Source: Octopus sinensis (Eukaryota). Taken from it: a stretch of 64,000 bases of DNA. The stretch's first letter is position 1. Every line of letters begins with the position of its first letter. The stretch covers positions 37,262,001-37,326,000 of the forward strand of contig NC_043010.1 in the NCBI RefSeq assembly GCF_006345805.1, written 5' to 3'. Under the pieces are notes generated by a model that was given only the letters and a program-made list of their open reading frames with translations, did not search any database and was not told where the DNA came from. Made by a program: the position numbers and the translations under genes. This document shows positions 5,335 to 36,784 of this stretch, piece by piece.

Positions 5335-5445
<111 letters not shown>

Positions 5446-10717: not shown

Positions 10718-10755
<38 letters not shown>

Positions 10756-10757
<2 letters not shown>

Positions 10758-11017
10758 AGGCACATGGCCTAGTGGTTAGAGCAGCGGACTTGCAGTTGAG
10801 GGATTGCAGGTTCGAATCTCAGATCGGGCAATGTGTGTGTTTATGAGTGAAACACCTAAGCTCCACGCGGCTGACTCTTTCGCCACAACTTTCTCTGACT
10901 CTTTCCTCTTGCATCTTACCTGCGACGGACCGGCGTCCTGTCCAGGTGGGGAACCTATACGCCAAGGAAACCAGGAAACCGGCCCTTATGAGCCAGGCAT
11001 GGTTCGAGAAGGAACAA

Positions 11018-11019
<2 letters not shown>
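10756..11019 (+). mobile_element. family D tRNA-derived SINE
   Basis: A box TGGCCTAGTGG and B box GGTTCGAATC; shares its head and tttcgccacaactttctct with 55785-56093 but has a different 3' half. Confidence 0.8.
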
Positions 11020-11056
<37 letters not shown>

Positions 11057-11290
11057 TAGAAAGATAGATAGATAGATAAATGTATATGTATGTATTTTAT
11101 TGTTTTATTTGTTTCAGTCATTTGACTGTGGTCATGCTGGAGCACTGCCTTTAGTCAAACAAATCGACCCCAGGACTTATTCTTTGTAAGCCTAGTACTT
11201 ATCCTCTCGGGCTCTTTTGCCGAACCACTAAGTTATGGGGATGTAATCACACCAACATCGGTTGTCAAGCAATGGTGGGAGGGACATTTC

Positions 11291-11325
<35 letters not shown>

Positions 11326-11945
11326 GTAATGGTGTCAGTAAGACCCAAAGGTGTCAGGTAATGCTGAGTACGTGCCATGGACCTTCTAGTTATAAATGTT
11401 CTAAAATCTTCACAGCCTTGGTTTTTTTATCTCATTCTAAACAAAAAATTTTATATATGTGTGTGCGTGTGTGTGTGCGCGTGTGTGTGAGTGCACGCAT
11501 GCCTTTGTTTTCGGCAACCAGTGTTGGTTTGTTTCTGTTCTTATAACTTAAATGGTTCAGCAAAAGAGACCAGTAGAATAAAGTACCAGGCTTTAAAAAG
11601 TAACTATGTACTGGGGTCAATTCATTGGGAGTAAAAAACTCTTTAAGGCTATACTCTTTTTCTTTTACATGGCTGCAATCCAGTGACTAAAACAAGTAAA
11701 AGATGCACGCGTGCACACACACATGTGTGGTAAACAAGAATTAACTGGTTCCCTTGGACAGTCAACTGTGAATGTTGTGGGGGAGGATATTAATCTGAAT
11801 AAGTATACCTTTCCACCTTCACTCTCTACTTCTTCTTAACCCCCCGCCCCCCGGCCACACTCCTCCCTCTTATGTTGTAGGAAGTGATTTGCTTGCAAAT
11901 AATTCATTCAGTCTTGACCACTAACAGCAAAACACACACACACAC

Positions 11946-11986
<41 letters not shown>

Positions 11987-12569
11987 GTTCATTCATTCTT
12001 TCATTCAATTATTTATTCTCTCTCTCTCTCTTTGAGTCTTTTACCTCACCTTTCTCTGCTTCATAATGTTAAACACACGCACACACACACATACATGCAT
12101 GCACACATGTACCTACTCACTTACATATAGCTTCCATATGTGACTTAGCTGCCTGTTCTCTTTACATTGACATCATTAACACAATAGCTCCATCTTCAGC
12201 AACAGCAGCAAAATCTTTATTCTCCATCTCCTACCCAACCCCAGTCATCCTCAGCCTTGTTTTTGTTTCTGTTCTTGTCAACCCCCCTCCCGCCATCACC
12301 ACCACCACCACCAACATCATCATCCTCACCCTCATCACTAAACCACCACCATCATTAACATCATCGTTACCCTCATCATCAATTAATGATAACATCTCTT
12401 AGTTGTCTTCATAGTCATTGCAATAATAACATTCTGTGTCTTTCATTGCCACAAGGGCATCAGAAGGGAGAGAATATTATTAAGGGCTGGCTGCAAAAAG
12501 TCATCATCTTTTAACATCTGCCTTCCATGTTGGCATGGGTTGGATGGCTCAACAGAAGCTGGCAAGAAG

Positions 12570-12803
12570 GGCGGCGAACTAGCAGAAACGTTAGCATGCC
12601 GGGCGAAATGCTTAGCAATATTTCATCTGCCGTTACGTTCTGAGTTCAAATTCCACCAAGATCGACTTTGCCTTTCATCCTTTCGGGGCTCGATAAATTA
12701 AGTACCAGTTACACACTGGGGTCGACGTAATCGACTTAATCCCTTTGTCTGTCCTTGTTTGTCCCCTCTATGTTTAGCCCCTTGTGGCCAATAAAGAAAT
12801 AAG
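12570..12803 (+). mobile_element. family B tRNA-derived SINE inserted into a family C repeat, 13-bp TSD
   Basis: ggcggcgaactagcagaaacgttagc...gagttcaaattcc...gcctttcatcctttcgggg...taagtaccag...aataaagaaataag, flanked by direct repeat agaagctggcaag. The central block resembles the MetaSINE domain as I recall it. Confidence 0.9.
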
Positions 12804-13409
12804 AAGCTGGCAAGCTTGAGGGCTGCACCAGGCCCCAGTTGTCTGTTTTGCCATGGTTTCTCCAGCCGGATGCCCTTCTTAATGCCAACCAATTTATAGA
12901 GTGTACTGGGTTATTTTTGTTATGTGGTGTCGGCATGAGTGCTGCCTATGTGGCGCTGACACATGCTTTTCACATGCTGTGGACACAGATGCTTTTTATT
13001 TGACACCAGCACAATCCTGCTATGATCTTGTTCCTACATATGAAACATCTGCCTATTATGATCATTATTCTTTTGACACATTTTTCAACAATTTTAACAA
13101 CACAGTATAAAGGCGAAGAGAAGTAGACCTATGTTTTCTAATCGATGATTGTATGAAGCTCTTTTTAGAGTTTATTCACTTCTTGGTGCAAAGATAAAAA
13201 TAAAATAGCTAACAACTCTCAGGGTAGAAGATTTGGCAAGTGTATAACAAAAGTGTCCTCTCCTATGACTGTGACATCAGTCCTGTGTATGTAGACTGTA
13301 TACTATCTCAAGGAAGCCATATTTTAGGACCAGCCAAAGCTTTGTGGATCAATTTGCCTGACAGAAAAAACTGAAAAGAAGCTCATTGTATGTATATGTA
13401 TCTATGTAT

Positions 13410-13797
<388 letters not shown>

Positions 13798-14739
13798 GTG
13801 TTTGTGTTGTGTTTGTCCCCCACCAATGCTTGACAACTGGTGCTGGTTTCTTTACACCCCTGTAAGTTAGTGGTTCAGCAAAAGAGATTGATAAAATGAG
13901 TACCAGACATATAAACAAGCCTTGAGGCTGATTTGTTTGACTAAAAACCCTTCAAATTGACACCCCAGCATGGCTGCAATCCAATGACTGAAACATGCAA
14001 AAGAGAAAACTAGGGGTGGGAGGAGGGGGTTGTTTTTCGATTTTTCATACAAAGTGCAGCGGTAATTTTTCCGTTTGATCTCCACTGCATCACAGAATCA
14101 AAAAGACCAAAAGCCACAGGTGCTCTAATGACGTTTGAATGGCAGAAGGGAATAAGGAGCAGTAGTGGGGTCATAGTGGGGTGATAGTTACAGAGTTGTG
14201 ATATGGCCTTGATATGGTTGTTATAGTTGCATCAGTGGTAGTGCCAGTTGTGGTTGTGGTACTTGTGTTAGTGGCTATGGTGATGGTGGTGGCGGTGGTG
14301 GTGTTTATTATGTCATAGTATGATTGTGATAGATGGTGATGGTGATGGAAATAACGATAATACTAGCCATGCAGTTGTGTTGTTGCTGTTTAGCACCAGG
14401 CTAGGCCTGATCAGTCAAACCTCTCTCTCTGCCAAACAAATTCCAGCCATGACCATCCTATCTTTTTTTTACTTTCCAGATATAATTGTATACCCATGAT
14501 AACATTATCCAATATGTCATTCATATTTCTGTTTAACACAATGGGTATGACTTAAACGATAAAAGAGATTTAGCTGCTGTTTGTAGCAAGTCAGGCAACT
14601 ATATAATGACACTCATTGGCAGCTGGATACACTTAATATTGGTGCTGTTTGTGGTGGTGAATCCTCAGATCAATGGTTCCCAAACTTTTCATTACCAAGG
14701 ACCCCTTTTAATATGCTTATCCTTATGTATGTGTGTATG

Positions 14740-14773
<34 letters not shown>

Positions 14774-14775
<2 letters not shown>

Positions 14776-15143
14776 CGCAGGAGTGACTGTGTGGTAAGTA
14801 GCTTGCTTACCAATCACATGGTTTCAGGTTCATTCCCACTGCGGGGCACTTTGGACAAGTGTCTTCTACTATAGCCTCGGGCCGACCAAAGTCTTGTGAG
14901 TGGATTTGGTAGACGGAAACTGAAAGAAGCCTATCGTATATATGTGTGTGTCTGTGTTTGTTCCCTAAACTTCACTTGACAACCGATGCTGGTGTGTTTA
15001 TGTCCCCGTAACTTAGCAGTTCGGCGAAAGAGACCGATAGAATAAGTACTAGGCTTCCAAAGAATAAGTACTGGGGTCAATTTGCTTGACTAAAAGGCAG
15101 TGCTCCAGAATGACTGAAACAAGTAAAAGAGAAAGAGTAAAGA
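14774..15143 (+). mobile_element. family A tRNA-derived SINE, full length
   Basis: Same head, body and (aaagagt)n-like tail as 9468-9870. Confidence 0.9.
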
Positions 15144-16042
15144 GTACATATATATAAATGCTTAGTTCACTAATATTGTTGAGGACAGTGATGGAAAGAA
15201 AGTTCTTATTTCTTCTTACAGACTCAACTCCAAATCCTGGTTTTGTTTTGTTTCCATCTCTACCACCTCTGCAGCTTTTAGTGTCTTGTTTTAATTGTAA
15301 CACTGCACCGCCCTTGCCCTCCCACACACACACACTCTAACTCATAATTACGTGTCCCACAAGTAGGTTACATTTGAACACCATTATAATGTGATCTCCA
15401 CCCTGCTTATGTAAAACTGGTTTACACACACATACACACATATATCATTTATCTTTTACTTTTTTCAGTCATTAGATTGTGGCCATGCTGGGGCATCACC
15501 TTGAAGAATTATTAATCAGAAGAATCAACCCCAGCCCTTATTTTTTCTTTAAACCTGGTACTTCTTCTGTCGGACTATATTGCCAAACCACTAAGTTTTG
15601 GGGATAGAAACACACACACACACATGGAAAACATGTTAAAGGATGATGATGACGATGTGTGTGTATGTGTTTACACTCGCAAGGCTATAGTAGAAGGCAC
15701 TTGCCCAAGGTGCCATGCAGTGGGACTGAACACAAACCTGCATGGTTGCAAAACAGGCTTCTTAACCACATAGCTATGCTTGTTCCTAGGTAGAAAAAAA
15801 GTTAAGCTGGTCATAGCTGGAATGTCTCTGATGTAGGTGTGATTGATCAACGGCTGACTGAACGTAGGCCATGGTAGTGCTCCAGCATGGACCAGAAGCC
15901 AGTAAAAGAATATTCGTGTGCGTAGGCATTGGGAAGTACAACGATGCTTTGCTGTGATTAGTAGTGTTATCTGCATGGCACCTTGGGTAAGTGACTTCTG
16001 CTGTAGCTCCAATAGCCTCAGGCTGACCAATGTCTTGTGTGT

Positions 16043-16252
16043 GGAGAGCTAGCAGAAACATTAGCATGTTGGCTGAAATGCTTCGCGATATTTCATCGGT
16101 CTTTACATTCTGAGTTCAAATTCTGCTGAAGTCGACTTTGCCTTTCATCTTTTCGGGGTCAGTAAATGAAGTACCAGTTGCATACTGAGGTCGATCTTAT
16201 CGACTGGCCCTCTTCCCCAAAATTTCGGACCTTGTGCCTAGAGTAGAAAAGA
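16043..16252 (+). mobile_element. family B SINE (variant tail) inserted into a family A SINE, ~17-bp TSD
   Basis: Flanked by direct repeat aatgtcttgtgtgtgga. Confidence 0.85.
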
Positions 16253-17062
16253 ATGTCTTGTGTGTGGATTTGATAGATGGAAACTCTGTAGAAGCCCAAT
16301 GTGTGTGTGTGTACTTTTCTAGTTGTGTTTGTTCCCTGCCACTCCTTGACAGCCAGTATAGGTTTGTTTATGTCTCTATAACTTAGCAGTTCAGCAAGAG
16401 ATCCTGATAGAATAAGCTTGCATGCTTTAAGAAAAAATTTTTTAAATCACTACTGGGGTCCATTTGTTAGATGAACTCCTTCAAGACAGAGCCTTAGCAT
16501 GACCACAGTCCAATGATTGAAACAAGTTAGAGAGAAAAGCATTCAGTGTACACTGTAAAGTGGTTGGTGTTTCGAAGGACATCCAGCTGTAAAAGCCATG
16601 CCAAAACTGACCTCACCGGTGCTGGTGCCAAAGCCATGCCTAAAACAGAAACAGAAGTCTGGTGCAATCTTCTGCCTGGCCAGGTCCTGTCAAACCGTCC
16701 AACCCATGCCAGCATGGAATGCAGATATTAAACTATGATCATCATCATCATCATTCATTTAGCGTCCGTTTTCCATGCTAGCATGGGTTGGACGGTTCAA
16801 CTGGGGTCTGGGGAGCCCGAAGGCTGATTATATATAAATATATATATACAAAATTTAGAGGACTGATCAATAAAAGTGGACAGCCTATATGCTAAACATA
16901 GCCGTCAAATTGCCATTACCACGAAGAATGTGTTCTCAAGAAAAATCTCAGCAAAAGATCAAAATGTAAAAATAAGCAAGACAAATGAAAATATACGAAA
17001 TAAAAAACGATTGACTGCTGTAGTTTATATATATATATATATACACACACATACACACACAC

Positions 17063-17335
17063 TTTATTTGTGTATTAAGGTTACCATTAGTTTCATGTTA
17101 AGAAAATATCTGAACAATTTTTCAAGCCAGTCACATGGAGGAATGGTGTTCATCTCCATTTTGAATTAAACACCAAAATGGAGATAAACACCATTCCCCC
17201 ATGTAATCAGCTTGAAAAACTATTAAGATATGGAGACGAAAACCACTCCTCTATGTGATCAGCTTGAAAAATTGTTGAGATATTAAGATGTTTTTCTTGG
17301 CATGAAACCATTGGTAGCCTTAATACACAAATAAA
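17063..17335. repeat. imperfect fold-back (inverted repeat) with partial duplication of the right arm
   Basis: tttatttgtgtattaaggttaccattagtttcatgttaagaaaat pairs with tttttcttggcatgaaaccattggtagccttaatacacaaataaa; inner arms ggaatggtgttcatctccatttt / aaaatggagataaacaccattcc. Confidence 0.85.
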
Positions 17336-17391
17336 AAAAATTTTATCCACCAATGTGGTGTTGAGCACTCTTTCTCATTCTTTGACATTTA

Positions 17392-17422
<31 letters not shown>

Positions 17423-17772
17423 CATGCATACACTCACACATCCACATAAGAATACAAGCACATATACACACAATGTCCCTGGTATTAAATTATTGTCTCC
17501 CTCACCCTCACCCACCCCATCCAAGGAGATTTGTGCTTTGGCAGCTTGTGTTAGTTTGGATGTCTGTAACACAACCCTTTGGCTTCCTCCTCCTCCTCCT
17601 TTTTCCTTCTCTTCTCTTCTTTGTTCTCTCTCTTTTTCTCTCTCTCCTTCTCTCATACTTCCAGTTTTCACTCTTGTATAGCTTTTCCTTGCTTTGTCTT
17701 CCCTCTTCTTTTTTTTTTTCTTGTTAACATGATCCCTCTTTCTCCTTCCCTTCATCTCTCTCTTTCTCCCCC

Positions 17773-17806
<34 letters not shown>

Positions 17807-17994
17807 TAAAGCAAGAGAGAGAGGGAGAGAGAAAAATGAATCCCTTTTAGTCTTTCTCTCTCACTATCTCTGGTTTCTATATTGTGTGTGTGTGTGTGTG
17901 TGTGTGTCCATCCATCCCCATATGTGTATGTATCTCTCTCCCTCACTATTGTCGTCTATACATCTCTCTCTCTCTCATTTATCATACTTCTCAC

Positions 17995-18152
17995 CTATCT
18001 ATCTATGCATCTATCTATCTATCTCTATTTATTTATCTATCTATCTATCTATCTATCTATCTCTATCTATCTATCTATCTATCTATCTCTATCTATCTAT
18101 CTCTATCTATCTATCTCTCTCTATCTATCTCTCTCTCTCTCTCTCTATCTAT

Positions 18153-18186
<34 letters not shown>

Positions 18187-18190
18187 CACT
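17995..18190. repeat. (TATC)n/(TC)n microsatellite
   Basis: Directly visible. Confidence 0.95.
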
Positions 18191-18339
18191 TAGTATTATG
18201 ACCCTTCCACTGAAATCTTTCTACTCTCACTCTTTCTCTGCTTCCACCCCCCCATACCTCCATCTTGGTATCCTCATTTCAACTTACCTCAACACTACCT
18301 CCAGCAGCACAACTATTATTATTATTATTATTAATATTA

Positions 18340-18378
<39 letters not shown>

Positions 18379-19636
18379 GACTGCAACTACTCCCACTGGC
18401 TAGTGTTTCTAATCTCTCTCTCTGTTTCCTCTCCATCTTTTATTTCCCTCTCTGTAATTCTCCTTTCTTGCATCCCCACCCCCAACTATCTGCCTTTCCT
18501 TTCTATCCCCACCCTATGGCTAGCTCTCTGCCCCCCCCCCGCCACCACCACCACACTTGATTCTCCTCTGGCCCTCTCCTCCAACCTACCCCTACCAGCC
18601 TCCTATGTTAGTACCCCTACCTCCTCTAACTACCACCATACCTATCCCCCATGAACTCCACTACCATCTCCCTCCCTTATGTATACACACACATACACAC
18701 ACATATATATATATATATATATGATCCCTCCCACCACAATGCTAGTGGTACTACCACCATGACCACCACCTCCACTATAACTACTAATAAAACAACCATC
18801 ACTACCACAGCTGTTACCTCTACCACACACACCTTTACCATCCCTCTTCCACCCACACACACTCTCCTATCCTGTGCTACTATCACTACAGTGCCACTGC
18901 TTCCTTCTTCATCACTACCACTCCAACATCCAACACCACTCCAATGTTCTCTCTGCCGCCGCCGCCACCACCACAACTATAACCATTCCCATCTCCCTTT
19001 CTACTATTTCCCCCCATCACTCCTACTATCGCCACTACTGCCATCTCCACCACCACTACTAATACTACTTCCACTTCTACAGTTACCATCATCATCACTA
19101 CCACCACCACTACCTCTTCTACTACTATTACTATAATATCTACTTCTGGTCCTCCATCAATCCACCACCAGGAACCAAGGTAGGGGACTTGACCTGCTAG
19201 AAATAATAGCAGTCATATTTTTACCCTCATCACTCAGATAGATGAAATGTAAAAGGAAAGAAGAACAATCTAATCCTTGATATTCGAAACAGAAGGGCTG
19301 GCCATGGCTGGAAAGCTTTTCGTTATATATATATATAGATAAATAGATAGAAAGATAGATAGGTTTCTTAAATAACAACAATCAGCACCAACACCACCAC
19401 CACTGCCATCAGTACTATCACCACTGCCGCCAATACCACCTCCACTACCAGCAGTACTATTATCACCACCACCACCACCACCACTGCTGCTACCGCCGCC
19501 ACCGCCTGCACCCTTACAACAGTCACTTTATTCCAATTCTGTCTTTTCACTTCCAGAGAATAATCTCCATATTAAAACTATTGATTTCTATTAAACCCAT
19601 TTTTCTTTTACTAATGCTTGACTGTTTCCATTGTTG

Positions 19637-19670
<34 letters not shown>

Positions 19671-19820
19671 TCTTCTTCTCTTTCTTGACCTCCTTCCTAT
19701 ACCAAGCTTCCATCACCCATTCACCACCATCACCACTGCCACCGCTGCCGCCATGGGCACTGCTGTCTCTGCCTCTCCCCCCCCCTCGCCACAACCATGC
19801 CTCCCTACTTCCTATTCACC

Positions 19821-19851
<31 letters not shown>

Positions 19852-20444
19852 TCATTTACCTCCCACCGCTACTAAAATCACTACTACTACTTCTTACTAA
19901 CATCCCTACCAACCTCCCAACCTTCCTCCCCTTACTGCTTATTGCAACCACCACCACCACCACCACCACCACTATCTCCCTCTTTTACCACTGATCTTTA
20001 GTAATATATCTATTATCTGTTTCTTTCTCAGACTACCTACTATAAAAACACTATCTCTCACTACCACCACCACCACTTCTTCTTACAAAGCCACTACTTC
20101 CACTCTCAGCTATACAAACAGCAACTAAGCCAAAGAGGGGAATCTCTGAAGTCATGGTTTGACCTGCTGCTATGCAAAATAGCAGTAAAAAAAAAAAAAA
20201 TCACCCCTCATCACATCCCTTGCAGTCTTTTACAAAAGTGCTACAAAAGAACACTTTGGATATTATCATTATACATTATTATTATGTATCCAAGCAGCAT
20301 AAACCAAAGAAGGCTGAATGCTCATGGATCAGAATATGCCTATAATCAATCCGGAGAGGTCCTGTTGGATCAGAGATGACCTGAGGTGCTGCCCCCCCCA
20401 CCACCACCACACTACCACCATTACTAATAACAACATTTATTTAA

Positions 20445-21468
20445 CCCTTTCAGCTTTTAGATTATTCTGTCCAATTCACAGCTTATTTATTCACGTGGTT
20501 TCAAATTAATCATGCATCATTTATTATCTTATATATTTAGCCTTGAGGTGTTTAATGATGTGGATTCTTTTTACTTGTTTCGGTCATTTGAGTGCGGTCA
20601 TGCTGGGGCACCCCGCCTTGAAGAATTTTTAGTCGAAAGAGTCGACCCCCCCCCCCCCCGCCTGATACTTATTCTGTTGGTGTCTTTGGCTGAACCGCTA
20701 AGTTACAGGGATGCAAACACACCAACACCAGTTGTCAAGTGATGGTGGAGAACAAACACAGACACAAAGACACATGCACGTAGATACACACACACACACA
20801 CAAGAATTTTTTGCGTAATGAGCTAAAAAAACCAAGGCTGTGTAGATATTAGAACACATATAGATAGAAGGTCTTACAGCTGTTTCCAGGATATTTATTA
20901 ATTATATCCCTTCATCAGAGACGGTGTGAGAGGATGGTTAAGAAGCCTGTTGTATATATATATATATATATATAGGTTAAGAAGCCTGTTGTATGTATAT
21001 ATATATATATATATATACACACGCACAACAAGCTTCTTTCAGTTTCTGTCTACCAAATCCACTCACAAAGCCTTGGTCAGCCCAAGATTATATAATAGAA
21101 GACACTTGCCCAAGGTGCCAATGCCATGCAGTGGGACTGAACTCAGAATTATGTGTCTAGAAAGCAAGCATCTTACCACCAACATTGTAAGGTGGGTGTG
21201 AGAGGCCAAATCTGACTGGTTTGAAGTTAAAACTGGTTGAATATTTTGGGCAAAATATGGCCATCAAACAGATTATTCTGTCAGATGTAACACTTAATTT
21301 TTTCACATTGTCTTGAATTAATCCTGCATTATCTGATAGCTTTGGGATTTCAATGGTGTGATTGATTATGTTTTGAATGACATTGTCAGGTAGGTGTGAG
21401 AGGCCAGGTCTGGTCAGTTTGAACATAAAACAGGTCGAAAATTCGGGGCTGGTTTAAATGCTAAAGGG
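20445..21468 (+). mobile_element. piggyBac-type MITE (two internal units) interrupted by a family A SINE (~20565-21180)
   Basis: Begins TTAA|CCCTTT and ends AAAGGG|TTAA; body shared with ~23349-23680, ~39815-40019 and ~62899-63115. Confidence 0.7.
20871..20922 (-). ncRNA. type I hammerhead ribozyme motif, intact core (Penelope-like terminal repeat)
   Basis: Minus strand: GTCT-CTGATGA-agggatat aattaataa atatcctg-GAAAC-AGCT-GTA-AGAC. Stem I is GTCT/AGAC, stem II is ggatat/atatcc, stem III is the palindrome ACAGCTGT, and the cleavage triplet is GUA. Confidence 0.85.
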
Positions 21469-21506
21469 TTAATTTATTCATTCCAATCTGGATGGAACTG
21501 TGTTAA

Positions 21507-21714
21507 CCCTTTTGATACCAACACGCCTGAAACCGCCTCTGGTTCTGTAATACAAATTTCTTGTTTTGAAAAGTTCTGAATTAAAACTTTCTGCCAAACA
21601 TTAGTCCCAATTTATGTTCCTAACACTAGCTTAATGATAACTAAGTTATTTTACTAAATTCTTTGTTATATTTAAAATTAATTGAAAAAAACAGAGAGCA
21701 TCTCAACAAAAGGG
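21507..21714. mobile_element. piggyBac-type MITE, 208 bp, TTAA TSD
   Basis: TTAA|CCCTTTTG ... CAAAAGGG|TTAA; related copies at ~8454-8660 and ~47760-48443. Confidence 0.85.
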
Positions 21715-21869
21715 TTAACAGGTAGGAGCATCATCACTTTGCTTGGTGTTGGGGCTCTTCTGTCAATGTACATTTCAGTCTGGCACTAACCCTACATTTC
21801 AGTCTGACACTAACAAGGAAACTCTGAGCACTGCCTGCTAATTAAAATAATTGACTCTTCTGTGAGTTT

Positions 21870-22390
21870 CAATGATGAGTATTTTAAATGTCCTCGACCC
21901 TCCCAGACAGCAAAAGGAATACTTTTCATTAATGTTTTAGCAAAGTAGAATCAGTCATTTTGTGTGTGTGTGGAGCCTGGAGGAAGGGCCGTAGCCCGTG
22001 ACCCTTGAAGGTCCTCCCAAAACAGCTGAGATTGATACTGCTAATGTTCTGTTTGAATTGTTGTAGGCCAATATCTACTGAAAAAGACATGAAGAGAGAG
22101 GAGATACAAGGGAGCCTCATATTCTGAGGATGATGGATTGGACGTAATGATCAATATGGGGAAAGTAGGATTAGATGCACCAAGGGTGCCAAAAGGTGGA
22201 GAGACGAGCTGGATGGAGGAGCAGAGGCAATTATAGTAATGATGGAAAAGAGAGAGGAGATAGTATGCCTATGGGCTAGAGAGGCTGGAGCGTATCTGTT
22301 ACTGATGGAGCGCCAATCAGTCAGGTGGGCCTCAGGCCATAGATAGCAATAGAAACGACAGATAGAGGAGGTAGCACACATGTGGACTAG
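21870..22390 (-). mobile_element. decayed LINE ORF2 C-terminus and 3' UTR (CR1/Jockey group)
   Basis: Minus-strand fragments ASLAHRHTISSLF and DIGLQQFKQNISSINL resemble the L..RR....L.LFY and ...LQ.FK..IN LINE C-terminal motifs; frameshifted. Confidence 0.55.
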
Positions 22391-22462
22391 AGGCTGAATT
22401 ATGTCCGTTATTGGTGGAGTGTCAATTAGCCAAGTATTTGTGTTAAGGTAATACTAAAGCAG

Positions 22463-22817
22463 AACAAGAGCACTCACCTCTGCCAAGGCAACACCACTAT
22501 CCTCTCAATGATTAGCCAGAGATGATTATTAAAATGAGAATATCTGAAATAAACTCAACTGCTCTCACATGTGAGAATACTAAAAGTGAACCTGACCACT
22601 CTCAAAAATTAAGTAAAAAACCAGGAAAGATTATCCAGAATCCTTGTCCAGCACTGGATTGATCCCAAAATCTAATCAGTTCATGCTAATCACAAGGCCA
22701 AACATCTCTGGAAGTTTCATCTGAATTCATCCAGCGGTTCTTGAGATATCTTGTCCACAGACAAACCAACAAAAACAACTGAAAGCTATACCTCTGCCTT
22801 CCCTAAGGTGGAGGTAA
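22463..22817. mobile_element. non-autonomous Helentron/HINE-like element
   Basis: Starts aacaagagcactc..acctctgccaagg and ends in hairpin acctctgcctt-ccct-aaggtggaggt-aa; second copy at 37904-38247. Confidence 0.6.
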
Positions 22818-23762
22818 TAAGTACGACACATGGTTGACTCTTTGAATTGCAATTACACAAATCCATTTAGTGATGATGATGAAGAAGAAGAAGAAGAAGA
22901 AGAAGAATGCAAGGAGGAGACAGAAATGAAAGGATGTGCAATGATATATTTGTAAGATATTGTGTAATATACACAGATCCCAGGGACAGAGGGAAAAAAA
23001 ATCAAAAGTGAATCATTACCAAAAGTTGCTGACTCTTAATCTGTGCACTTGTTGAACCCCCTACTAGAAATAGCAACCATATATTTCTCAAATCACATCT
23101 TACAACCATAGATATATATCCTATTAAACTGTGTCAGAAAACAAAATAATGAGTTGGTCATGACTGGAATGCTTTTCCTCATAGATATATGTTCAATTAT
23201 CACTGACCTCGATTCAACACAATCTATCAATAGCATAACTATTAGACCCACTGTGTCACAAGCACCACTGTGCCACAAGCATCACTGTGTCACAACCACC
23301 ACCAAGAAAAGAAACTTCAGTAGGGCAACCTCTGTGTAGAGACTGCAACCTTTAGCATCTAAATTGTCTGTGTCCAGCCCAAATATTCAACATGTTTTAT
23401 GTTGAGACTAGCCAGATCTGGCCTCTCACACCTACCCTACAATGTCATTCTAAAACTAAACAATCACATCATCGAAATTTTTGAAGCTACAAGATAATGC
23501 ATGATTAATTCAAAACAATCTTGTAACTTTCATCCCTTATTTGTTTCAGCCATTAGACCACAGTCCTGCTGGGGCATCGCTTTTAAGGGTTTTTAGTTAA
23601 ACGAAATGACCCCAGTACTTATTTTTTCAACCCTTGTAAGTATTCTATTTGACAGAGTAATCTGAATGCTAATAAGCAAGTCGTTATGAAACGGCAGCCA
23701 AATTAAGATGCTGTGTGTGAATCACCTTAAAAACAAAGGACATGTTGGATGTTGCCCTAAAG

Positions 23763-23941
23763 CAGTGCTTTTCAAACTTTTTGCTGGGGCGGAACCCCAA
23801 GGAAGCATTCCACTGGCTCGGGGAACCCCTGTGCAATAATTTAATAGTCTTATGCACACATATCTGCACAGGAAAATTTAAAATTACTGCCGATTTTAGC
23901 AGTTTTGTAACTTCTTGCGGAACCCTAGTTGAAAACCACTG
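23763..23941. mobile_element. hAT (Charlie-type) MITE with 8-bp TSD
   Basis: TIRs CAGTGCTTTTCAAAC / GTTGAAAACCACTG; TSD ccctaaag (23755-62) / ccctagag (23942-49). Confidence 0.85.
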
Positions 23942-24893
23942 CCCTAGAGAAATATATACAAAAAAAAAACCTATGGAGTGGTCACTGCTGGAGAGAGACA
24001 CTGTTATCATAGGTCTATTAGGACGAAGCTGACCTAGGGTTAAACAACAACAGCAAGCACCAAGATGTTTGCAGTGGCAGGAAGATAATTCAAGTCTTTA
24101 AATTTAGAAGGAATATCAGAAGAGACAGGGTAAAAAGTATGATCAACAAGAAAAACAAGAAAGATGATGATGATGATGATGATGATGACGGTGGTGATGA
24201 TGATGATGGTGATGATGATGACTACACCAACAGATACTCCTTGACAATGACACAGATGACAAGAACAGATTGTGACAGTTAAGACTGTGACGAGAGGTGT
24301 GTGCAGGGTGGAGGGGGGACTTGCAGTGCTACCCCCTCCCCCAGTAGATTTTTGTGTGGATGTGACTGTTCATGTGGCAATATGTTTGCACATGTATGTT
24401 TGTTTATGTGTGTGTATATGTGCCTGTTCACATGTCCCTGTCCATGTGGGAATACACTCATGTATATGTGTGTGCACCTGGTAATAAGACTGTGTGTAAA
24501 ATAAATAGCAGCTTGTATGTGTGTGTGTGTGTGTATATGCATTTATATGTCTGTATTCATGTAGTAATGTGTGTGTTGATTTATATGGTAATGTGTATGC
24601 GTGTTTGTATGTCTGTATTCATGTCGTCATGTATGTGTGCGTCCACCTGTGTAGTTGTATATGTGGTAGTTGGTGTGAAGATGTATGTGTAAGAGAAAAA
24701 AAACAGACGCATGATGTGATGTGTGTGTGGTTCTGTGTGTGTTCATGTGAATAATAGACAGTATGCATATGTGTTTGACTGTTAAGACCATGTGCATATA
24801 TTGCATGAATATGACAGTGTACTTGTTTGACAGCAAAAGCATTCACATGTGCATATAATGATTTAGACATGTGTTTGGCAGAACACACACGTG

Positions 24894-24942
<49 letters not shown>

Positions 24943-24945
<3 letters not shown>

Positions 24946-25340
24946 CTCTTTTACTCTTTTACTTGTTTCAGTCATTTGACTGCGGCCATGCTGGAGCACC
25001 GCCTTTAGTCGAGCAAATCGACCCCGGGACTTATTCTTTGTAAGCCCAGTACTTATTCTATCGGCCTCTTTTGCCGAACCGCTAAGTGACGGGGACATAA
25101 CCACACCAGCATCGGTTGTCAAGCAATGCTAGGGGGACAAACACTCACACACACTTATATATATATATATACATATATACAACAGGCTTCTTTCAGTTTC
25201 CGTCTACCAAATCCACTCAAGGCATTATTCGGCCCGAGGCTATAGCAGAAGACACTTGCCCAAGATGCCACGCAATGGGACTGAACCCGGAACCATATGG
25301 TTGGTTAGCAAGCTACTTACCACACAGCCACTCCTGCGCC
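24943..25340 (-). mobile_element. family A tRNA-derived SINE, full length, CpG-rich (young)
   Basis: (tactctt)n tail through cacacagccactcctgcgcc head. Confidence 0.9.
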
Positions 25341-25572
25341 TATATATAAATATACAAATATATAAATATAAATATACATATACATATATATATATACATA
25401 TATATAGATTAATCAGCCGAAATTGCTAAGATGATCTGGTTCTTGACTGATGACTGAGGGCTTCGAATGTCCCGTCCTGTGGTTCTTGTGTCGTCTCTGT
25501 GGTGTTTCATGTTCTTGTCCATGTCTGTATTTAATTTTACTGTTTACCTATATATATATATATATATATATT

Positions 25573-25617
<45 letters not shown>

Positions 25618-25634
25618 ATATATTATATATTATA

Positions 25635-25671
<37 letters not shown>

Positions 25672-26860
25672 GGATGCGCCTGTGTATGCAAGTGTGCATA
25701 TGTGCATGCATTACTGTCAGGAGTGTACTATTGAAACTCTCAAGCTGAACTTGTCCTACTCGTCTTTTCGCAGAAAAACCAAACCCAGCCGAATAAAAAT
25801 GATAAATAAAATAAAAGTAAAATGTGCGGGTGTTGTTGAATGGGTATGTGGCCTGGTGCAGTGGGGTAGGTGGGCTGAGGGTGCCTTAAAGGGTGATGGG
25901 TGAAGGGGAGACCATACAGAAAATCCAAGCAAATTGGGCCAGTGTGCTGTTTGTTGCTAATCTCTCTTGACAAGGGGCTGCCAGACAACAAATCCCCTTC
26001 ATAACACCACCACTACCACCACCACCACTACTATAACCATCATCATTACTACTATTACCACTACCATTACTCCCACCACCACCACCACTACATCCATCAC
26101 CAGGACTACCACCACTGCTGTTACTACTACTACTACTACTACTACTACCCTTACCATTAACACCACTATTTCTACAACTATTACTTCCACCACTACTACT
26201 ATCCTACTACCACCACTACTCCTGCCACCACTATCACCTGTGCCATCACCACCACTGCTGCTGCTGCTACTACTACTACTATAGAAACAAGATAATTTAT
26301 TAATTTAAAACCTGAATTTTGTGTAAGATGTTGGTCAGTGGGAGTGGTTGTTTCCATGGATGGGGGGAGTAGTGGCTATCAGGGGGACAGGGTGCAAGAT
26401 TCTTATTGTCTTTGATTTCTTTTTTTAGATTATTGTGTGTGTGTGGAGGGGCAAGGGGTAAAAATCAAAACAGAGGAAAGTAAAAAGGAAAAGAGAGGAA
26501 AAAAACAAACCTACATAGGTTCAAGTCTTCAGTGCCTTAACTAAATACTAATGGGGGTCATGAGGAAGAAAACTGTTTGTTCTTCCTCTTTGTTGTATTA
26601 TTGTCTATGAATCTATGCTTTTGGCCTTTTCATACACACTATCACATACATACATACATGCATACATGCACATATACACATGCACACATACACACACACA
26701 TACACACACACACACACACACTAATAGGTTCTATGGCCTATCCCAACAATCATTATTAATTATATTATTACCAATAATTAGTATTATCAATTATGTTGTT
26801 ATCAATCATAAGTTAATTAATGCGAGCATGCACAAGTGTGTTTTTGTTGTTGTTGTCGTC

Positions 26861-26891
<31 letters not shown>

Positions 26892-27269
26892 AGCTCTGAG
26901 TCGGCCCTGATCAAACAAACCTTTGATAAATTACATATATCTGACCCGCAGATATTCTTCTACTTGTTTCAGTCATTTAACTGTGGCCATGTTGGAGCAC
27001 TGCATATAGTCAAACAAATCAACCCAAGGACTTATTCTTTATAAGCTTAGTACTTATTGTATCGGTCTCTTTTACTGAACTGCTAAGTTACGGAGACAAA
27101 CCCAAGTATATATATACATACATACATACACATATATATCCTTCTTTCCTTTCCTTTCCTGAGTGTCTAATAACACAATACTTGTTCCATGTCCTCGCGT
27201 TGTTGTGTTTTCTCTTTGTGTTTTTATGTTTGGATTAACTATATATATATAATCAATCAAAACAAATCA

Positions 27270-27752
27270 AAATAGATGAACATCAATGGAATTTGTATCT
27301 TTGTGGTACCAGTGCCGGTGGCACACAAGAAAACCATCCGAACGTGGCCGTAGCCAGTACCGCATCGACTGGCCTCCGTGCTGCGGGCACGTAACAAACA
27401 CCATCCGATCGTGGCCGTTCGCCAGCCTCATCTGGCACCTGTGTCGGTGGCACATAAAAACACCATCCGAGCGTGGCCGTCTGCCAGCCTCGTCTGGCAC
27501 CTGTGTCGGTGGCACATAAAAAACACCATCCGAGCGTGGCCGTTCGCCAGCCTCGTCTGACACCTGTGTCGGTGGCACATAAAATCACCCACTACACTCT
27601 CGGAGTGGTTGGCGTTAGGAAGGGCATCCAGCTGTAGAAACACTGCCAGATCTGACTGGCCTGGTGCAGCCTTCGGGCTCCCCAGACCCCAGTTGAACCG
27701 TCCAACCCATGCTAGCATGGAAAACGGAGGCTAAATGAATGATGATGAATGA

Positions 27753-27755
<3 letters not shown>
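27270..27755 (+). mobile_element. family C element with internal 62-63 bp tandem units
   Basis: cggtggcacat recurs at 27445, 27507 and 27570, followed by ggttggcgttaggaagggcatccagctgtagaaac and a (GAT)n tail. Confidence 0.85.
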
Positions 27756-27789
<34 letters not shown>

Positions 27790-27792
<3 letters not shown>

Positions 27793-27953
27793 CCATAGGA
27801 GTGGCTTTGTGGTAAGAAGCTTGCTTCCTAACCACATGGTTCCGGGTTCAGTTCCACTGCGTGGCACCTTGGGCAAATGTCTTCTGCTATAGCCTTGGGC
27901 CAACCAAGACCTTGTGAGTGGATTTGGTAGACAAAAACTGAAAGAAGCCCATC

Positions 27954-27986
<33 letters not shown>

Positions 27987-28195
27987 CACGTATATATATT
28001 TGTGTGTGTGTCTGTGTTTGTTCCCCCACCATTGCTAGACAACAGATGTTGGTATGTTTACATCCCGATAATTTAGCAGTTCAACAGAATAAAGACTAGA
28101 CTTACAAAGAATAAGTTAATTTACTTGACTAAAGGCAGTGCTCTATCATGGCCGCAGTCAAATGACTGAAACAAGTAAGAGAATAAAAGAAAATA
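27790..28195 (+). mobile_element. family A SINE
   Basis: Full head-to-tail match to family A. Confidence 0.85.
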
Positions 28196-28214
28196 AGATA
28201 TATATATATATATA

Positions 28215-28830
28215 CTGATACTTATTGTATGGACCCCGAAAGAATGAAAGCAAAGTTGGTCTCAGCAGAATTTGAACTCAGAATGTAAAGCCAGGAGAAA
28301 TGCCCCTAAACGCTTCGTCCAGTGTGCCAACAACGGTTCAACCTTAAACTGCCTTTATAATAATAATAATGATAATTCTTTCTGCTAAAGGCACAAGGCC
28401 TGAAATTTGGGGTTTGGGGTCCAGTCGATTAGATTGACCTCAGTGTGCAATTGGTACTTAATTTATCGATCCCCGAAAAGATGAAAAGCAAAGTTGACTT
28501 CAGTGGAATTTGAACTCAGAATGTAACGGCAGATAATAATAATGATGATGATGAGGAGGATGACGACGACGTCGTCAGTGGTTTCTGATTTTGGCACAAT
28601 ACCAAGAATTTTGAGTTGAGAAGATTAGTTGGGACCTCTGATTCCGGTGCTTGGCTGGTACATTGTTATCCGTCTTGGAGAGGTGAAAGGCAGAATTGAT
28701 GTTTGACTTTGGCAAGATTTGAACTCAGAATGTAAACAACCAAAAGAGTACTTGACCGATACTTTATTTTATTGACTCTACCAGGTTGGAAAAAAAGAAG
28801 GTTGACTTTTTCAGGATTTGATCTCTGAAT
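28215..28830 (-). mobile_element. cluster of degenerate family B SINE fragments
   Basis: Repeated gaaaag(c)aaagttgac...gaatttgaactcagaatgtaa blocks. Confidence 0.7.
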
Positions 28831-29725
28831 GCGTTAATATATACAGTTTGTACCATAATTCCTGCCAACTTCCACCTCCTCCACTTACAACTGCTACTAC
28901 TACTATTTTCATAACTGTAATAGTTTTCATCTTTGTATGTATGTGCATGTTTAAAAGCAAATGTGTTTGTATATATGTATGTATGGGAGTGTATAATTAT
29001 GCTCGCTTGTATTTATGTCTATGTGTGAGTGTATGTGCATGTGTATATATCTGAGTATGAATGTGTACATATATGTATATATTTGTGTATGCATATTTAT
29101 GTGTGTGTGTGTGTGTATGAATATTTATATGTTTGTATTTGTGTATGTGTGTATATATAAGTATTTGTGTGCGTATGTTTCATTAAAAGAAATTTTGTAT
29201 TAACAAAAAATAACTGGACAAATGAAAACAAGCAAGGAAATGTGAAAAAAAAAACCCAATAAATATATAACTATTTGTTGTTATATCAAAGAAAATATTA
29301 ATATACAACACCACACCTCTACTGAAATTGTAACAGAACAGCCTGGTGGTGCACAAGCTCTATTGAGTTGTAATATGTACCCAACTGTAGGTTATGCTAA
29401 CGGTAGAAGAAACCCAGTGTTGAGGGTACCATAACAAGCTAGCAAGTACATTGAACTCTACTAGATATGTGTGCACAAGAAGCAATGGATGGGAGGCCTT
29501 TCTCAACATCATTTTGATTTATTATCACTGTCACTGTAATGTGGAAGGTAGGTGGTCACTGCTGTTGCTGTGTGGCAGAAATGGTATACAGTCAGGCAAG
29601 ATTGGTAAGCAAGGGTGGAGCGTATTGTTCTGAGTTTGGTTCTTTCTCAAGTTTTCAGATTTTTAAATCCCACCCATTACTGTTTCCTTCATCCATCCTA
29701 TTGCATCATGGAGGTTGATTTCTTT

Positions 29726-29819
<94 letters not shown>

Positions 29820-29881
29820 TTCGTTTTGGGATTTGGTTTGCAAGATTCTTTATGTGAGTTCGTGTGTTGAAGCATATTCTG

Positions 29882-30067
29882 TTGTGTCTGGGGAGAGTCA
29901 TTTTCTTTTTGTGCCTTATTATTTAACACACTCACCGGAACTATTGAAAAGGTTGCAAGACGCAACAAAAATTTTAGTACAATAAAAGTAAGAAAAAAGT
30001 GGAAATTTTACCGGTGAGTGTGTTACATTATAAGGCACAAAAAGAAAATAACTCTCCCCAGACACAA
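29882..30067. repeat. 57-bp inverted repeat with 72-bp spacer
   Basis: ttgtgtctggggagagtcattttctttttgtgccttattatttaacacactcaccgg (29882-29938) is the near reverse complement of 30011-30067. Confidence 0.9.
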
Positions 30068-30683
30068 AAGTATATATATGTATATTATAAATTTGGGATT
30101 TTACAAATAGGACCACAACTTCAATTTCAGAACAACCTTATTTTCTGGAGTACACATAGAAAGTTATATCCTAAATACTAATATAATAATATTAGCATTT
30201 TAAAGCCTACTATAACATACAATAAAAATAAAGTACATTAGAATTAATTATAAATTATTTACTCTTTTACTTGTTTCAGTCATTTGACTGCGGCCATGCT
30301 GGAGCACCGCCTTTAGTTGAGCAAATCAACCCCGGGACTTATTCTTTGTAAGCCCAGTACTTATTCTATCGGTCTCTTTTTTGCCGGACCGCTAAGTGAC
30401 GGGGACGTAAACACACCAGCATCGGTTGTCAAGCAATGCTAGGGGGACAAACTAAAAAATATATATAGCTTACTTGTTATTAGTCTGTGGGGAAAGAAGA
30501 TAATATTAATCAACACTACACGTGTTTCAGCCCTGGTGGTTTGTTTTACCAGGCTATACCTAATACATAAATGCACCTGTGCATCCTCAGGCTATTTTTC
30601 TCTTTTTATTATTATTATTATTATTAACAGATCCAATTTAATCCTACAAATTCTACAATATCTTCATTAAAAATAAAAATAAG

Positions 30684-30715
<32 letters not shown>

Positions 30716-30837
30716 ACTTCCTAATATTTTTTTTACAAAATTTAAAAGATTTTAAAAATTAGAAAATTTTTAAGAATTCATAAAAATTTTATAAAATAAA
30801 ATTAAACGCCTAGAAATATAATAGCGATATGATGATG

Positions 30838-30890
<53 letters not shown>

Positions 30891-31812
30891 AGTGCTAAAC
30901 AAAGAAACCTCATCAGCTGTTTTATAAACACATTGAATTAAACCCCCTATCTATATAAAAATTACGGGAAATTTATTGTGAAATTTACCCCTATCAATAC
31001 TGGTATATATTACCATTGTTATGTGAAATGTAAGTTAATAATATTTAAACAGTAAAAACCTCCATATATGTTATAAATTTATTGAATAAAACTAGTAAAT
31101 GAAACTATTTTCCAAAATTAACAATATATATATATATACACACACATATATGTATGTTTGTTCCTTCTCGAGCTCATTAGGGGCAGTTTCCTTGGCTTTG
31201 GTCAGCCTGAGGCTATAGTAGAAGACATTCACCCAAGGTTCCATGCAGTGGGACTGAACCCGGAACCAAGTGGTTGGGAAGCAAGCTTCTTACCACACAG
31301 CCACTCCTGCGCCTGTATATATATTTCTTTCAGTCTTTCTGTGATTGATGAAATATCTACCCCAGGGAGTATTGGGCTCATTGTACAACATCAGTTGCAC
31401 GCCTCTCTTGTTGTGATATATTTTCATGTTAACAGTCTGCACTGAAGACTAATAAGACACAGGTTGAAATTTCAACCTTTCAGTTTTCAGGCAAAAATAT
31501 CTTCCCTCTGGAGATTATAAGAATCAAATTAATTTTGAGCAAGTTTACTCTTTTACTCTTTTACTTGATTCAGTCATCTGACTATGGCCATGCTGTAGCA
31601 CCGTCTTTTTAGTCAAGCAAATCGACCCCAGGACTTATTAAACCTAGTACTTTTTCACATGCCTACGCCTACAAATAATAAATATATAATAAACATTGTT
31701 TTGGTTCATATGCTTGCTCTATGCCAACATTTCTCGACCATTTTTCTCCCCTATGAACACCTTTGCTTCCTACTTTGCTCAAGTGAACCCTTATAGCCAT
31801 CAAGTGTTTAAA

Positions 31813-32255
31813 ATCATCATCATCATCAATTAACGTCTGCTTTCCATGCTAGCATGGGTTGGACGATTTGACTGAGGTCTGGCGAACCAGACTCCAATCT
31901 GATCTGGCAGAGTTTCTACAGCTGGATGCCCTTCCTAACACCAACCACTCCAAGAGTGTAGTGGGTGCTTTTATGTGCCACCGGCACAAGGGCCAGTTTG
32001 GTGGTACTGGCAACGGCCATGCCCAAATGGTGCTTTTTACGTGCCACCTGCACAGGAGCCAGTCCAGTAACATTGGCGATGACCTCGCTCGGACATTTCA
32101 CATGCCACCAGCACAAATGCCAGTAAGGCAACATGGTAACAATCACGCTTGAATGGTGTGCCTAACGTACCATCAGCACGAAGGACAGCTTGTTGCTCTG
32201 GCAACAATCTCACTCGTATGGTACTCTTAGCGCTCCACTAGCAACGGATGCCAGA
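31813..32255 (-). mobile_element. family C element with diverged internal subrepeats
   Basis: (cat)n tail, ccatgctagcatgggttgg, ggatgcccttcctaac, then repeated tgccacc...gccagt units. Confidence 0.8.

Positions 32256-33430: not shown

Positions 33431-33483
<53 letters not shown>

Positions 33484-33695: not shown

Positions 33696-33726
<31 letters not shown>

Positions 33727-36717: not shown

Positions 36718-36784
<67 letters not shown>

What the first reader, a model, noticed from the sequence alone, without database searches (positions are those of the whole stretch)
20871..20922. Intact compact hammerhead ribozyme
Seen: all conserved core nucleotides (CUGAUGA, GAAAC, GUA) with stems I and II and a palindromic stem III (ACAGCUGU) on the minus strand. 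The adjacent ggttaagaagcctgttgta block is duplicated (~20936 and ~20974). Established: this architecture is typical of PLE terminal repeats and retrozymes. Outside the core it is unrelated to the 53-kb motif, so it is a separate family.
Basis: partly seen in the sequence, partly recalled or inferred. Interest (0 to 1): 0.7.

Follow-up and report, generated by a model that had tools for sequence, protein, structure and literature searches.

The report
Penelope retrotransposon stub with reverted hammerhead
This is a 141-base broken tail of an abundant octopus jumping gene (Penelope-like, Hydra clade) lying backwards in a gene's intron; its textbook-looking self-cutting RNA core most likely arose by ordinary CpG decay of the non-standard core that most of its sister copies carry, and it is likely inert.

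Summary
The hammerhead motif is real (minus strand 20922-20871) but neither special nor fully intact. It lies in a 141-bp, 5'-truncated 3' end of a Hydra-clade Penelope-like element with at least 2,000-2,800 copies. Longer copies carry a broken RT + GIY-YIG ORF about 1.3 kb upstream.

In this copy's own subfamily the core reads CCGAUGA in 80 of 100 listed copies, CUGAUGA in 9 and CCAAUGA in 10. The canonical U4 here is therefore most likely CpG decay. An older subfamily has true U4 (91 of 100), so the master lineage switched U4 to C4 and kept amplifying. An unpaired A·G at the base of stem II is family-wide and resembles published Hydra hammerheads.

The monomer fold is predicted negligible and a dimer is feasible, but no second family hammerhead was found in 214 kb. 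The copy is antisense in a 108-kb MAEA intron. The 'duplicated block' is not a terminal repeat: it is a fold-back of flanking SINE DNA plus seven bases of the element.

The scan had no look-alike sequence; an AI note on another genome reached a similar conclusion. Ordinary; the U4C lineage is a modest curiosity.

The parts
20802..20942 (-). 5'-truncated 3' end (pLTR stub, 141 bp) of a Hydra-clade Penelope-like element, ending at the family's commoner fixed 3' end (end A)
   Evidence: 89% identity over 141 bp to the long RT+GIY-YIG copy L158; end A in 32 of 54 copies
20871..20922 (-). Type I minimal hammerhead motif of the dimer type
20919..20922 (-). Stem I 5' strand GUCU (pairs with AGAC 20874-20871); 4 bp, no distal extension seen
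   Evidence: nearly invariant across subfamilies
20912..20918 (-). Core CUGAUGA; U4 at 20917 is likely a CpG-to-TpG reversion from the subfamily's C4
   Evidence: CG 80, TG 9, CA 10, CC 1 of 100 listed; U4 is 3-9% of contig depth on a C4 copy
20887..20911 (-). Unpaired A 20911, stem II 20910-20904 / 20894-20888 (G·U first pair, 9-nt loop), unpaired G 20887
   Evidence: the base before GAAAC is G 49, A 47, T 2, C 2 of 100 listed
20875..20886 (-). GAA, palindromic ACAGCUGU (2-bp stem III as monomer, 8 bp between two molecules) and cleavage nucleotide A17 (20875)
20936..20954 (+). Duplicated block, copy 1: chimeric 5' junction (SINE fold-back piece joined to the element through 3 shared bases, CTT on the minus strand)
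20975..20993 (+). Duplicated block, copy 2 (period 39, separated by (TA)n)
20979..21038 (.). 60-nt DNA hairpin of target DNA centred on (TA)n; arms 13 of 15 identical; -17.2 kcal/mol
21039..21180 (-). 5' half of the host SINE-like repeat into whose central microsatellite the element inserted (the label 'tRNA-derived octopus SINE' is recalled, not from a call)
   Evidence: many 70-80% copies in the window
20564..20801 (-). 3' half of the same SINE-like repeat
1..54065 (+). Part of a ~108-kb intron of MAEA; the hammerhead is on the opposite strand
   Evidence: the exon for residues ~15-75 ends ~54.3 kb before the window and the next exon starts at ~54066; no N in 214 kb

Best explanation
This is a truncated 3'-end copy of a Hydra-clade Penelope-like retrotransposon of an octopus, sitting in a SINE microsatellite antisense in a MAEA intron, and its canonical-looking hammerhead core is likely a CpG-decay reversion in a likely inert relic. 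SHOWN: family identity, copy number, parent RT + GIY-YIG ORF, two fixed 3' ends, (TA)n flanks, C4 majority, orientation against the host gene. INFERRED: the element's endonuclease nicked AT-rich DNA; reverse transcription started at the inner of two fixed sites and stopped after about 141 nt; the target's (TA)n strand folded back, copied about 15 nt of SINE, switched to the cDNA at a 3-base overlap and slipped once (or was duplicated later), giving the duplicated block; later a methylated CpG in CCGA deaminated to CTGA. In the parent element the motif would cut only as a dimer or with help from the element's protein, and slowly. This copy has no promoter of its own seen, no partner nearby and is not in the host pre-mRNA strand, so it likely never cuts.
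For: Copy number: 2,662 candidates and 42 scored matches; 1,993 and 2,799 exact matches to the two halves of the motif with 0 in the reversed controls. Parent: a GIY-YIG-type frame 1.4 kb upstream in L091; 10 of 30 GIY-YIG loci carry the hammerhead on the same strand and 0 on the opposite strand by a strict pattern, within 1.5-kb flanks; RT motifs in L158-L161; 31 full-length homologues of 712-937 aa, best E 1e-65. Hydra signatures of Craig et al. are present. Fixed ends: A in 32 and B in 13 of 54 copies; an inverted piece at the 5' junction in 12 of 54. The tail runs on into the ORF start in 7 of 30 N-terminal loci. CpG decay: CG 80, TG 9, CA 10, CC 1 of 100 listed out of 353; U4 is 3-9% and A5 3-4% of contig depth in four runs laid on a C4 copy; the older subfamily has TG 91, CG 2, CA 0 of 100 listed out of 215. 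Folding: monomer probability 8e-5; double hammerhead -24.5 against a best cofold of -24.8 kcal/mol. There is only one family hammerhead in 214 kb, antisense to MAEA.
Against: (contigs laid on the window copy) listed no alternative letter at 20917, where a C4 majority should show. It listed none anywhere in 20904-20944, including the neighbouring CpG that varies in about 35 of 100 genomic copies, so I treat it as uninformative, but it is unexplained; may be biased towards its C4 reference. A small U4 sub-lineage inside the young subfamily is not excluded, because the young copies form an unresolved polytomy. Pfam support for the protein is weak (GIY-YIG E 0.034, below cut-off; no RT family hit), and the PDB search gave nothing. 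Clade assignment rests on motifs and on by-eye comparison with the paper's alignment, not on a tree with reference PLEs. The fold-back junction is rare (no SINE-type fold-back among 54 copies), and 2 of 16 other SINE copies share the same decayed letters, so an inverted second SINE fragment is possible. Transcription and cleavage were not tested.
Confidence: 0.88

Rival explanations
1. The copy is a functional, host-used or self-active ribozyme: an antisense transcript through the MAEA intron cleaves here, as a trans-dimer with another family copy.
For: All catalytic core letters are canonical in this copy. The double-hammerhead dimer is within 0.3 kcal/mol of the best cofold. Thousands of copies could supply a partner.
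Against: A·G opposition and G·U at the base of stem II; monomer probability 8e-5 with a competing CUG·CAG pairing; no partner in 214 kb; the strand is opposite to the host gene. Published metazoan PLE hammerheads show no monomer and low dimer activity or need the element's protein.
Confidence: 0.05
2. The stub belongs to a non-autonomous retrozyme or ribozyme-bearing SINE, and the duplicated block is its terminal repeat.
For: Most copies are short and non-coding (5' ends from +15 to -819 in 54 copies). The stub sits inside a SINE. A few direct pairs 295-430 bp apart exist in the older subfamily.
Against: 5' ends are scattered, not fixed. Long copies run continuously into an RT + GIY-YIG ORF. 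The duplicated block is SINE flank plus 7 nt of element, and the other 29 top copies have different 5' sequence. There is no tandem array here.
Confidence: 0.03
3. The U4 here was inherited from a minor U4 master within the young subfamily rather than made by decay after insertion.
For: U4 is the ancestral state of the lineage. Among the 29 other closest copies about 12 have U4 (the set was picked by likeness to this copy, and one entry was read-type output after a cut).
Against: In a sample not biased at that site TG (9) equals CA (10), as symmetric CpG deamination predicts. U4 copies are scattered through the young polytomy.
Confidence: 0.08

Closest known systems
Hydra-clade C-terminal EN+ Penelope-like elements (Craig et al. 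2021, PMC8557442; seen: passages, section 11, supplement parts 1-2 of 59 and search hits)
   Same: RWK motif, CxCX5C linker, no CCHH, CxxC and CxH around the conserved E and N, (TA)n flanks, and a type I hammerhead at the 3' end. Extra unpaired bases on both sides of stem II are common in the published Hydra rows (for example U...U in Penelope-1_HM). Stem III 'acag NN ctgt a' of Penelope-1_NV, Hydra-1_aMil and Penelope-1_SK nearly equals ACAG/CUGU A here.
   Different: It is not Hydra-1_Obim (different hammerhead and ORF by eye). All Hydra hammerheads in File S2 start CUGA, whereas this lineage's younger masters have CCGA. The opposition is purine-purine. The unit is about 3.9 kb (published: under 3 kb) with a 3' UTR of about 1.3 kb. 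DKT reads DKA in the one copy inspected. The tail is about 125 nt instead of 30-40.
Minimal hammerheads (min-HHR) of metazoan PLE pLTRs (Cervera & De la Peña 2014, PMC4209133; seen: text parts 1-2 of 4, supplement search with file 1 not searchable)
   Same: Type I; helix I 4 bp; helix II 7 bp; extra nucleotide after A9; palindromic helix III; mostly dispersed single motifs from truncated PLEs; opposite-strand pairs; predicted dimer.
   Different: The paper's conserved G10.1-C11.1 pair is G·U here and is followed by an extra purine before G12. U4C is not among the core changes in the parts I read.
PAc (Poseidon of Anolis; Frangieh et al. 2024, PMC11167929; seen: passages)
   Same: Two fixed RT start sites give a tail, AT-rich targets are preferred, and uncleaved RNA is the dominant template. 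Here there are two fixed 3' ends and no pile-up of 5' ends at the cut site.
   Different: Poseidon clade; the ORF starts inside its hammerhead. Here the ORF starts beyond the tail, about 250 nt past the hammerhead.
Natural U4C hammerhead of a viroid (as described in Perreault et al. 2011, PMC3088659; seen: passages and section 8)
   Same: The same core change; it lowers activity in vitro yet suffices in vivo.
   Different: A rare viroid variant with tertiary contacts, against the majority state of a retrotransposon lineage without evident tertiary contacts.
Metazoan non-LTR retrozymes (bioRxiv 10.64898/2026.07.22.740005, part 1 of 5 seen; PMC7229834 search listing only)
   Same: Type I hammerhead related to PLE pLTRs.
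   Different: Retrozymes are non-coding tandem repeats with a hammerhead in each unit. This is a lone stub of a coding element.

Membership tests
EN+ Penelope-like element | Single ORF with RT and C-terminal GIY-YIG upstream of the 3' pLTR | tested here: met
   Broken ORF pieces in order RT, linker, GIY-YIG, then the hammerhead on the same strand. Pfam hit weak (E 0.034). No intact ORF seen (longest open frames 346 aa and 406 aa).
EN+ Penelope-like element | Partial-tandem pLTR and tail; inverted 5'-truncated copies | tested here: met
   Tail directly upstream of the ORF start in 7 of 30 loci; two fixed 3' ends; inverted piece in 12 of 54
Hydra clade | N-terminal RWK motif | tested here: met
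   RMRWK in L188, L193, L178
Hydra clade | DKG modified to DKT | tested here: inconclusive
   DKA in L160 (read); DKT in the four homologues aligned
Hydra clade | CxCX5C linker; CCHH absent; CxxC and CxH around the conserved E and N | tested here: met
   CNCRPGTTC; one Cys at most between VIY and YIG; CKLCLKE...NKHNEALSTCNH
Hydra clade | Insertion into (TA)n | tested here: met
   Most copies end in (TA)n. This copy has (TA)n at its 5' side and (TG)n at its 3' side.
Hydra clade | Phylogenetic placement of the RT among Hydra elements | not tested
   No tree with reference PLE proteins was built; compared by eye with the paper's alignment
Neptune clade | CX2-5CxxC linker and CCHH finger | tested here: not met
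   The linker is CxCX5C and there is no two-Cys motif inside GIY-YIG; my first label, dropped
Canonical hammerhead (Rfam / Perreault criteria) | Core C3 U4 G5 A6 N7 G8 A9, G12 A13 A14, A15-U16, H17 | tested here: met
   Met in this copy; not met by the subfamily majority, which has C4
Canonical hammerhead (Rfam / Perreault criteria) | Paired N10.1-N11.1 next to the core; covariance-model hit | tested here: not met
   A·G opposition; rejection rule; no Rfam hit
PLE minimal hammerhead | Extra base after A9, helix II 7-8 bp, helix I 4-5 bp, palindromic helix III, location in a pLTR | tested here: met
PLE minimal hammerhead | Stem covariation | tested here: inconclusive
   0 of 13 pairs change on both sides and one G-C/G·U change in 10 rows; a single A-U version in L045. 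The motif is 35-38 of 41 identical to distant subfamilies whose flanks are 51-65% identical.
PLE minimal hammerhead | Self-cleavage as a dimer | not testable with these tools
   Only folding energies
Non-LTR retrozyme | Non-coding tandem units, each with a hammerhead | tested here: not met
   Single stub; ORF-linked parent

The most novel reading that the evidence does not exclude
This octopus Hydra lineage is a natural experiment in which the master element replaced a conserved catalytic-core base (U4C), then weakened the first stem II pair, and still produced on the order of a thousand insertions. Stem I and the dimer palindrome stayed invariant, and reverse transcriptase mostly read through the cut site. 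PLE hammerheads would then be kept mainly as a dimerising or protein-binding RNA structure, with cleavage tuned down or dispensable. The dated subfamily series (U4/G-C, C4/G-C, C4/G·U) makes that open question directly testable.
Probability: 0.25. Interest if true: 0.55.

Novelty: new member of a known kind. Interest (0 to 1): 0.2.

Why it matters
The locus itself is one of thousands of dead stubs and matters little. Two things carry over. First, a caution: a textbook CUGAUGA core in a repeat copy can be made by CpG decay of a CCGAUGA master, so 'intact core' is no sign of function without a family census. Second, the family is an octopus Hydra-clade element different from the one octopus Hydra family listed by Craig et al., and its subfamilies form a dated series of core changes. 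The role of hammerheads in Penelope-like elements is still unclear, and this series is a ready set of natural variants to test.

Tried and rejected
- Rfam: no hammerhead hit on the whole window (150 of 181 rows listed, all microsatellite-driven miRNA/snoRNA noise) or on 20840-20945.
- Neptune clade: my working label until; dropped because the linker and finger motifs fit Hydra.
- Pfam and PDB did not recognise the RT fragments.
- Expression: no RNA holder listed. The runs laid are contigs of guessed kind and cannot show strand, ends or level. One search listed no variant at 20904-20944 and is unexplained.
- Fold-back of target DNA as a family-wide mechanism: not supported. Arms of 10 nt or more were found in 2 of 54 copies, both of element sequence.
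- Hammerhead cleavage as the source of 5' ends: no pile-up. Of 30 loci holding the ORF start, 20 had a tail hit (18 independent). Seven begin 29-193 nt upstream of the cut, 2 within 5 nt of it and 11 downstream. A re-ligated circular template would look the same.
- U4C as a cure for misfolding: only the C4 copies with A before GAAA lose the competing fold; C4 copies with G gain another. Inconclusive.
- First tree (83 of 104 rows, bootstrap not settled) rooted the C4 group at the young end. The second (38 rows: 6 long-branch rows dropped, 14 of 53 young rows kept, trait columns left in) gave the ladder used here.
- searched the wrong stretch; repeated.
- Twenty candidate frames in the window gave no credible Pfam exon.
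- Lünse et al. 2017 is not held; seen only as cited in PMC6765202 (passages). It may already describe such variants.
- Not-in-print claim for a U4C PLE hammerhead rests only; file 1 of the PMC4209133 supplement and the bioRxiv supplements could not be seen.

Full report
OBSERVATION. On the minus strand, GUCU (20922-20919) pairs with AGAC (20874-20871), CUGAUGA runs 20918-20912, a 7-bp stem II follows, then GAAA, the palindrome ACAGCUGU and A17 at 20875. A loose descriptor finds three such motifs in the window against 0.05 per shuffled window. It is not fully canonical: an unpaired A and an unpaired G face each other between the core and stem II, whose first pair is G·U. Rfam gives no hit. As a monomer the hammerhead fold has a predicted probability of 8e-5, because CUG of the core pairs with CAG of the palindrome. 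Two molecules can form a double hammerhead at -24.5 kcal/mol, 0.3 above the best cofold. All 12 natural copies folded have monomer probabilities under 3%.

WHAT IT BELONGS TO. The window is G000:C14:37262001-37326000 in a 2.72-Gb genome. An exon at 54066 is identical to Octopus vulgaris MAEA, so the host is an octopus. The 136-nt query gave 2,662 candidates. The 3' and 5' halves of the motif have 1,993 and 2,799 exact matches, with none in the reversed controls. In 54 copies picked by pattern, 5' ends are scattered while 3' ends fall at two fixed places about 125 nt apart (32 and 13 of 54), mostly into (TA)n; 12 of 54 carry an inverted piece at the 5' junction. Walking upstream led to a GIY-YIG-type frame. 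Ten of 30 such loci show the hammerhead downstream on the same strand and none on the other. Longer loci hold RT motifs in the same orientation, and 31 proteins of 712-937 aa are homologous. In 7 of 30 loci with the ORF start, the tail lies directly upstream, the partial tandem typical of Penelope-like elements. Only about 42 candidates hold the 5' part of the ORF and every copy seen is broken.

CLADE. Craig et al. define Hydra by an RWK motif, DKT, a CxCX5C linker, loss of CCHH, CxxC and CxH motifs near the end of the nuclease, and (TA)n targets. These are present, except that DKT reads DKA in the one copy inspected. Their hammerhead table shows extra bases on both sides of stem II in many Hydra families and an almost identical stem III in three. 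The A·G opposition is therefore a version of a known pattern. Their one octopus Hydra family has a different hammerhead and protein. No tree with reference proteins was built.

THE 'INTACT' CORE IS LIKELY A REVERSION. In this copy's subfamily (353 exact matches, first 100 listed), positions 4-5 read CG 80, TG 9, CA 10 and CC 1. Equal TG and CA is what deamination of a methylated CpG on either strand gives (established knowledge). Contigs of four runs laid on a C4 copy show U4 at 3-9% of depth. The same test on the window copy listed no variant in that region and is unexplained. An older subfamily reads TG 91, TA 5, TC 2, CG 2, CA 0 of 100 listed. A tree of 38 rows gives a ladder: distant family, old U4, middle U4, then one branch (support 100/98) to all C4 groups, the youngest of which holds this copy's nearest relatives. 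An 83-row tree with unsettled support rooted the group differently. Mean within-group distance is 0.096 for the young group and 0.27 for the old. The base before GAAAC is a purine in 96 of 100. The motif is 35-38 of 41 identical to distant subfamilies whose flanks are 51-65% identical, so it was under selection along the lineage. Whether selection went on after U4C cannot be told from these numbers. No pair changes on both sides in 10 rows. U4C is known from one viroid, where it lowers activity in vitro but suffices in vivo.

THE INSERTION SITE. The stub spans 20942-20802 and splits a SINE-like repeat at its central microsatellite. The duplicated block is chimeric. On the minus strand it is the inverse of the SINE's own flank at 21038 (13 of 15 identical, closing a 60-nt hairpin over (TA)n, -17.2 kcal/mol), followed by the first seven bases of the element, with three bases shared. 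It occurs twice, 39 nt apart. I infer fold-back priming on (TA)n, a switch to the cDNA and one slip; a later tandem duplication or an inverted second SINE scrap are alternatives. This was not seen in 54 other copies. MAEA exons lie about 54.3 kb before the window and at 54066 on the plus strand, so the hammerhead is antisense in a 108-kb intron. No other hammerhead of the family lies in the 214 kb examined.

HOW IT WORKED IN THE PARENT. Published metazoan PLE hammerheads do not cut as monomers and cut slowly as dimers. In PAc, cutting needs the element's protein and uncleaved RNA is the main template. The genome agrees with the last point: among 20 copies with tail plus ORF start, 7 begin 29-193 nt upstream of the cut, 2 within 5 nt and 11 downstream. 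A re-ligated circle would give the same picture.

VERDICT. An ordinary relic of a known kind of element, in a family not listed in the papers I could read. The scan holds no look-alike sequence. An unchecked note on another genome (e1-9560310) reached the same kind of conclusion; I had reached the decay reading before seeing it, and its mention of Hydra came before my reassignment from Neptune. Interest 0.2. The U4C lineage is the only part worth a bench test.

Noticed in passing
window 53054-53139 (-) and 53631-53713 (+): The '53-kb motif': two diverging copies of another hammerhead (7-bp stem I, A-U first pair with a long irregular stem II, palindrome ACGAUGCAUCGU) in a ~900-bp inverted repeat flanked by (TA)n; likely the two-armed end of a different Penelope-like family.
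   Followed up: no
window 11293-11457: Two-armed remnant of the same Hydra family (one arm from the tail, one ending at end A) that lacks the hammerhead.
   Followed up: partly
window 1-54065 and ~54.3 kb upstream: MAEA has a ~108-kb intron between the exons for residues ~15-75 and ~76-143; further exons at 56539, 70046 and 81350 in window coordinates.
   Followed up: yes
L045, L166-L170: A more distant family with the same stems I and III but a C·A opposition at the base of a longer stem II; L045 has A-U as first pair. Only 5 exact pattern matches.
   Followed up: partly
L074/L075 (G000:C1:9312129, 9312424); G000:C5:92707600/92708027; G000:C6:73155540/73155896: Direct pairs of the old U4 hammerhead 295-430 bp apart; these could form cis dimers if transcribed.
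   Followed up: no
L158 (2285-3404 against 5862-6978): Inverted arms of one insertion are 99.1% identical over 1,120 bp while the copy is 75-90% identical to sister copies; suggests a young event or gene conversion between arms.
   Followed up: no
L159-L163, ORF linker region: The ORF carries a variable Asn/Asp/Gly-rich microsatellite-like insert before the CxCX5C linker that the homologues from other animals lack.
   Followed up: no
L178 and L233 (G000:C7:44886 kb): A partial-tandem copy whose upstream pLTR has lost the hammerhead by an internal deletion from the core to just past the cut site.
   Followed up: no
window 17121-17216: A long near-perfect hairpin (about 80-95 nt) that scored against several miRNA models below cut-off; probably a small inverted-repeat element.
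   Followed up: no
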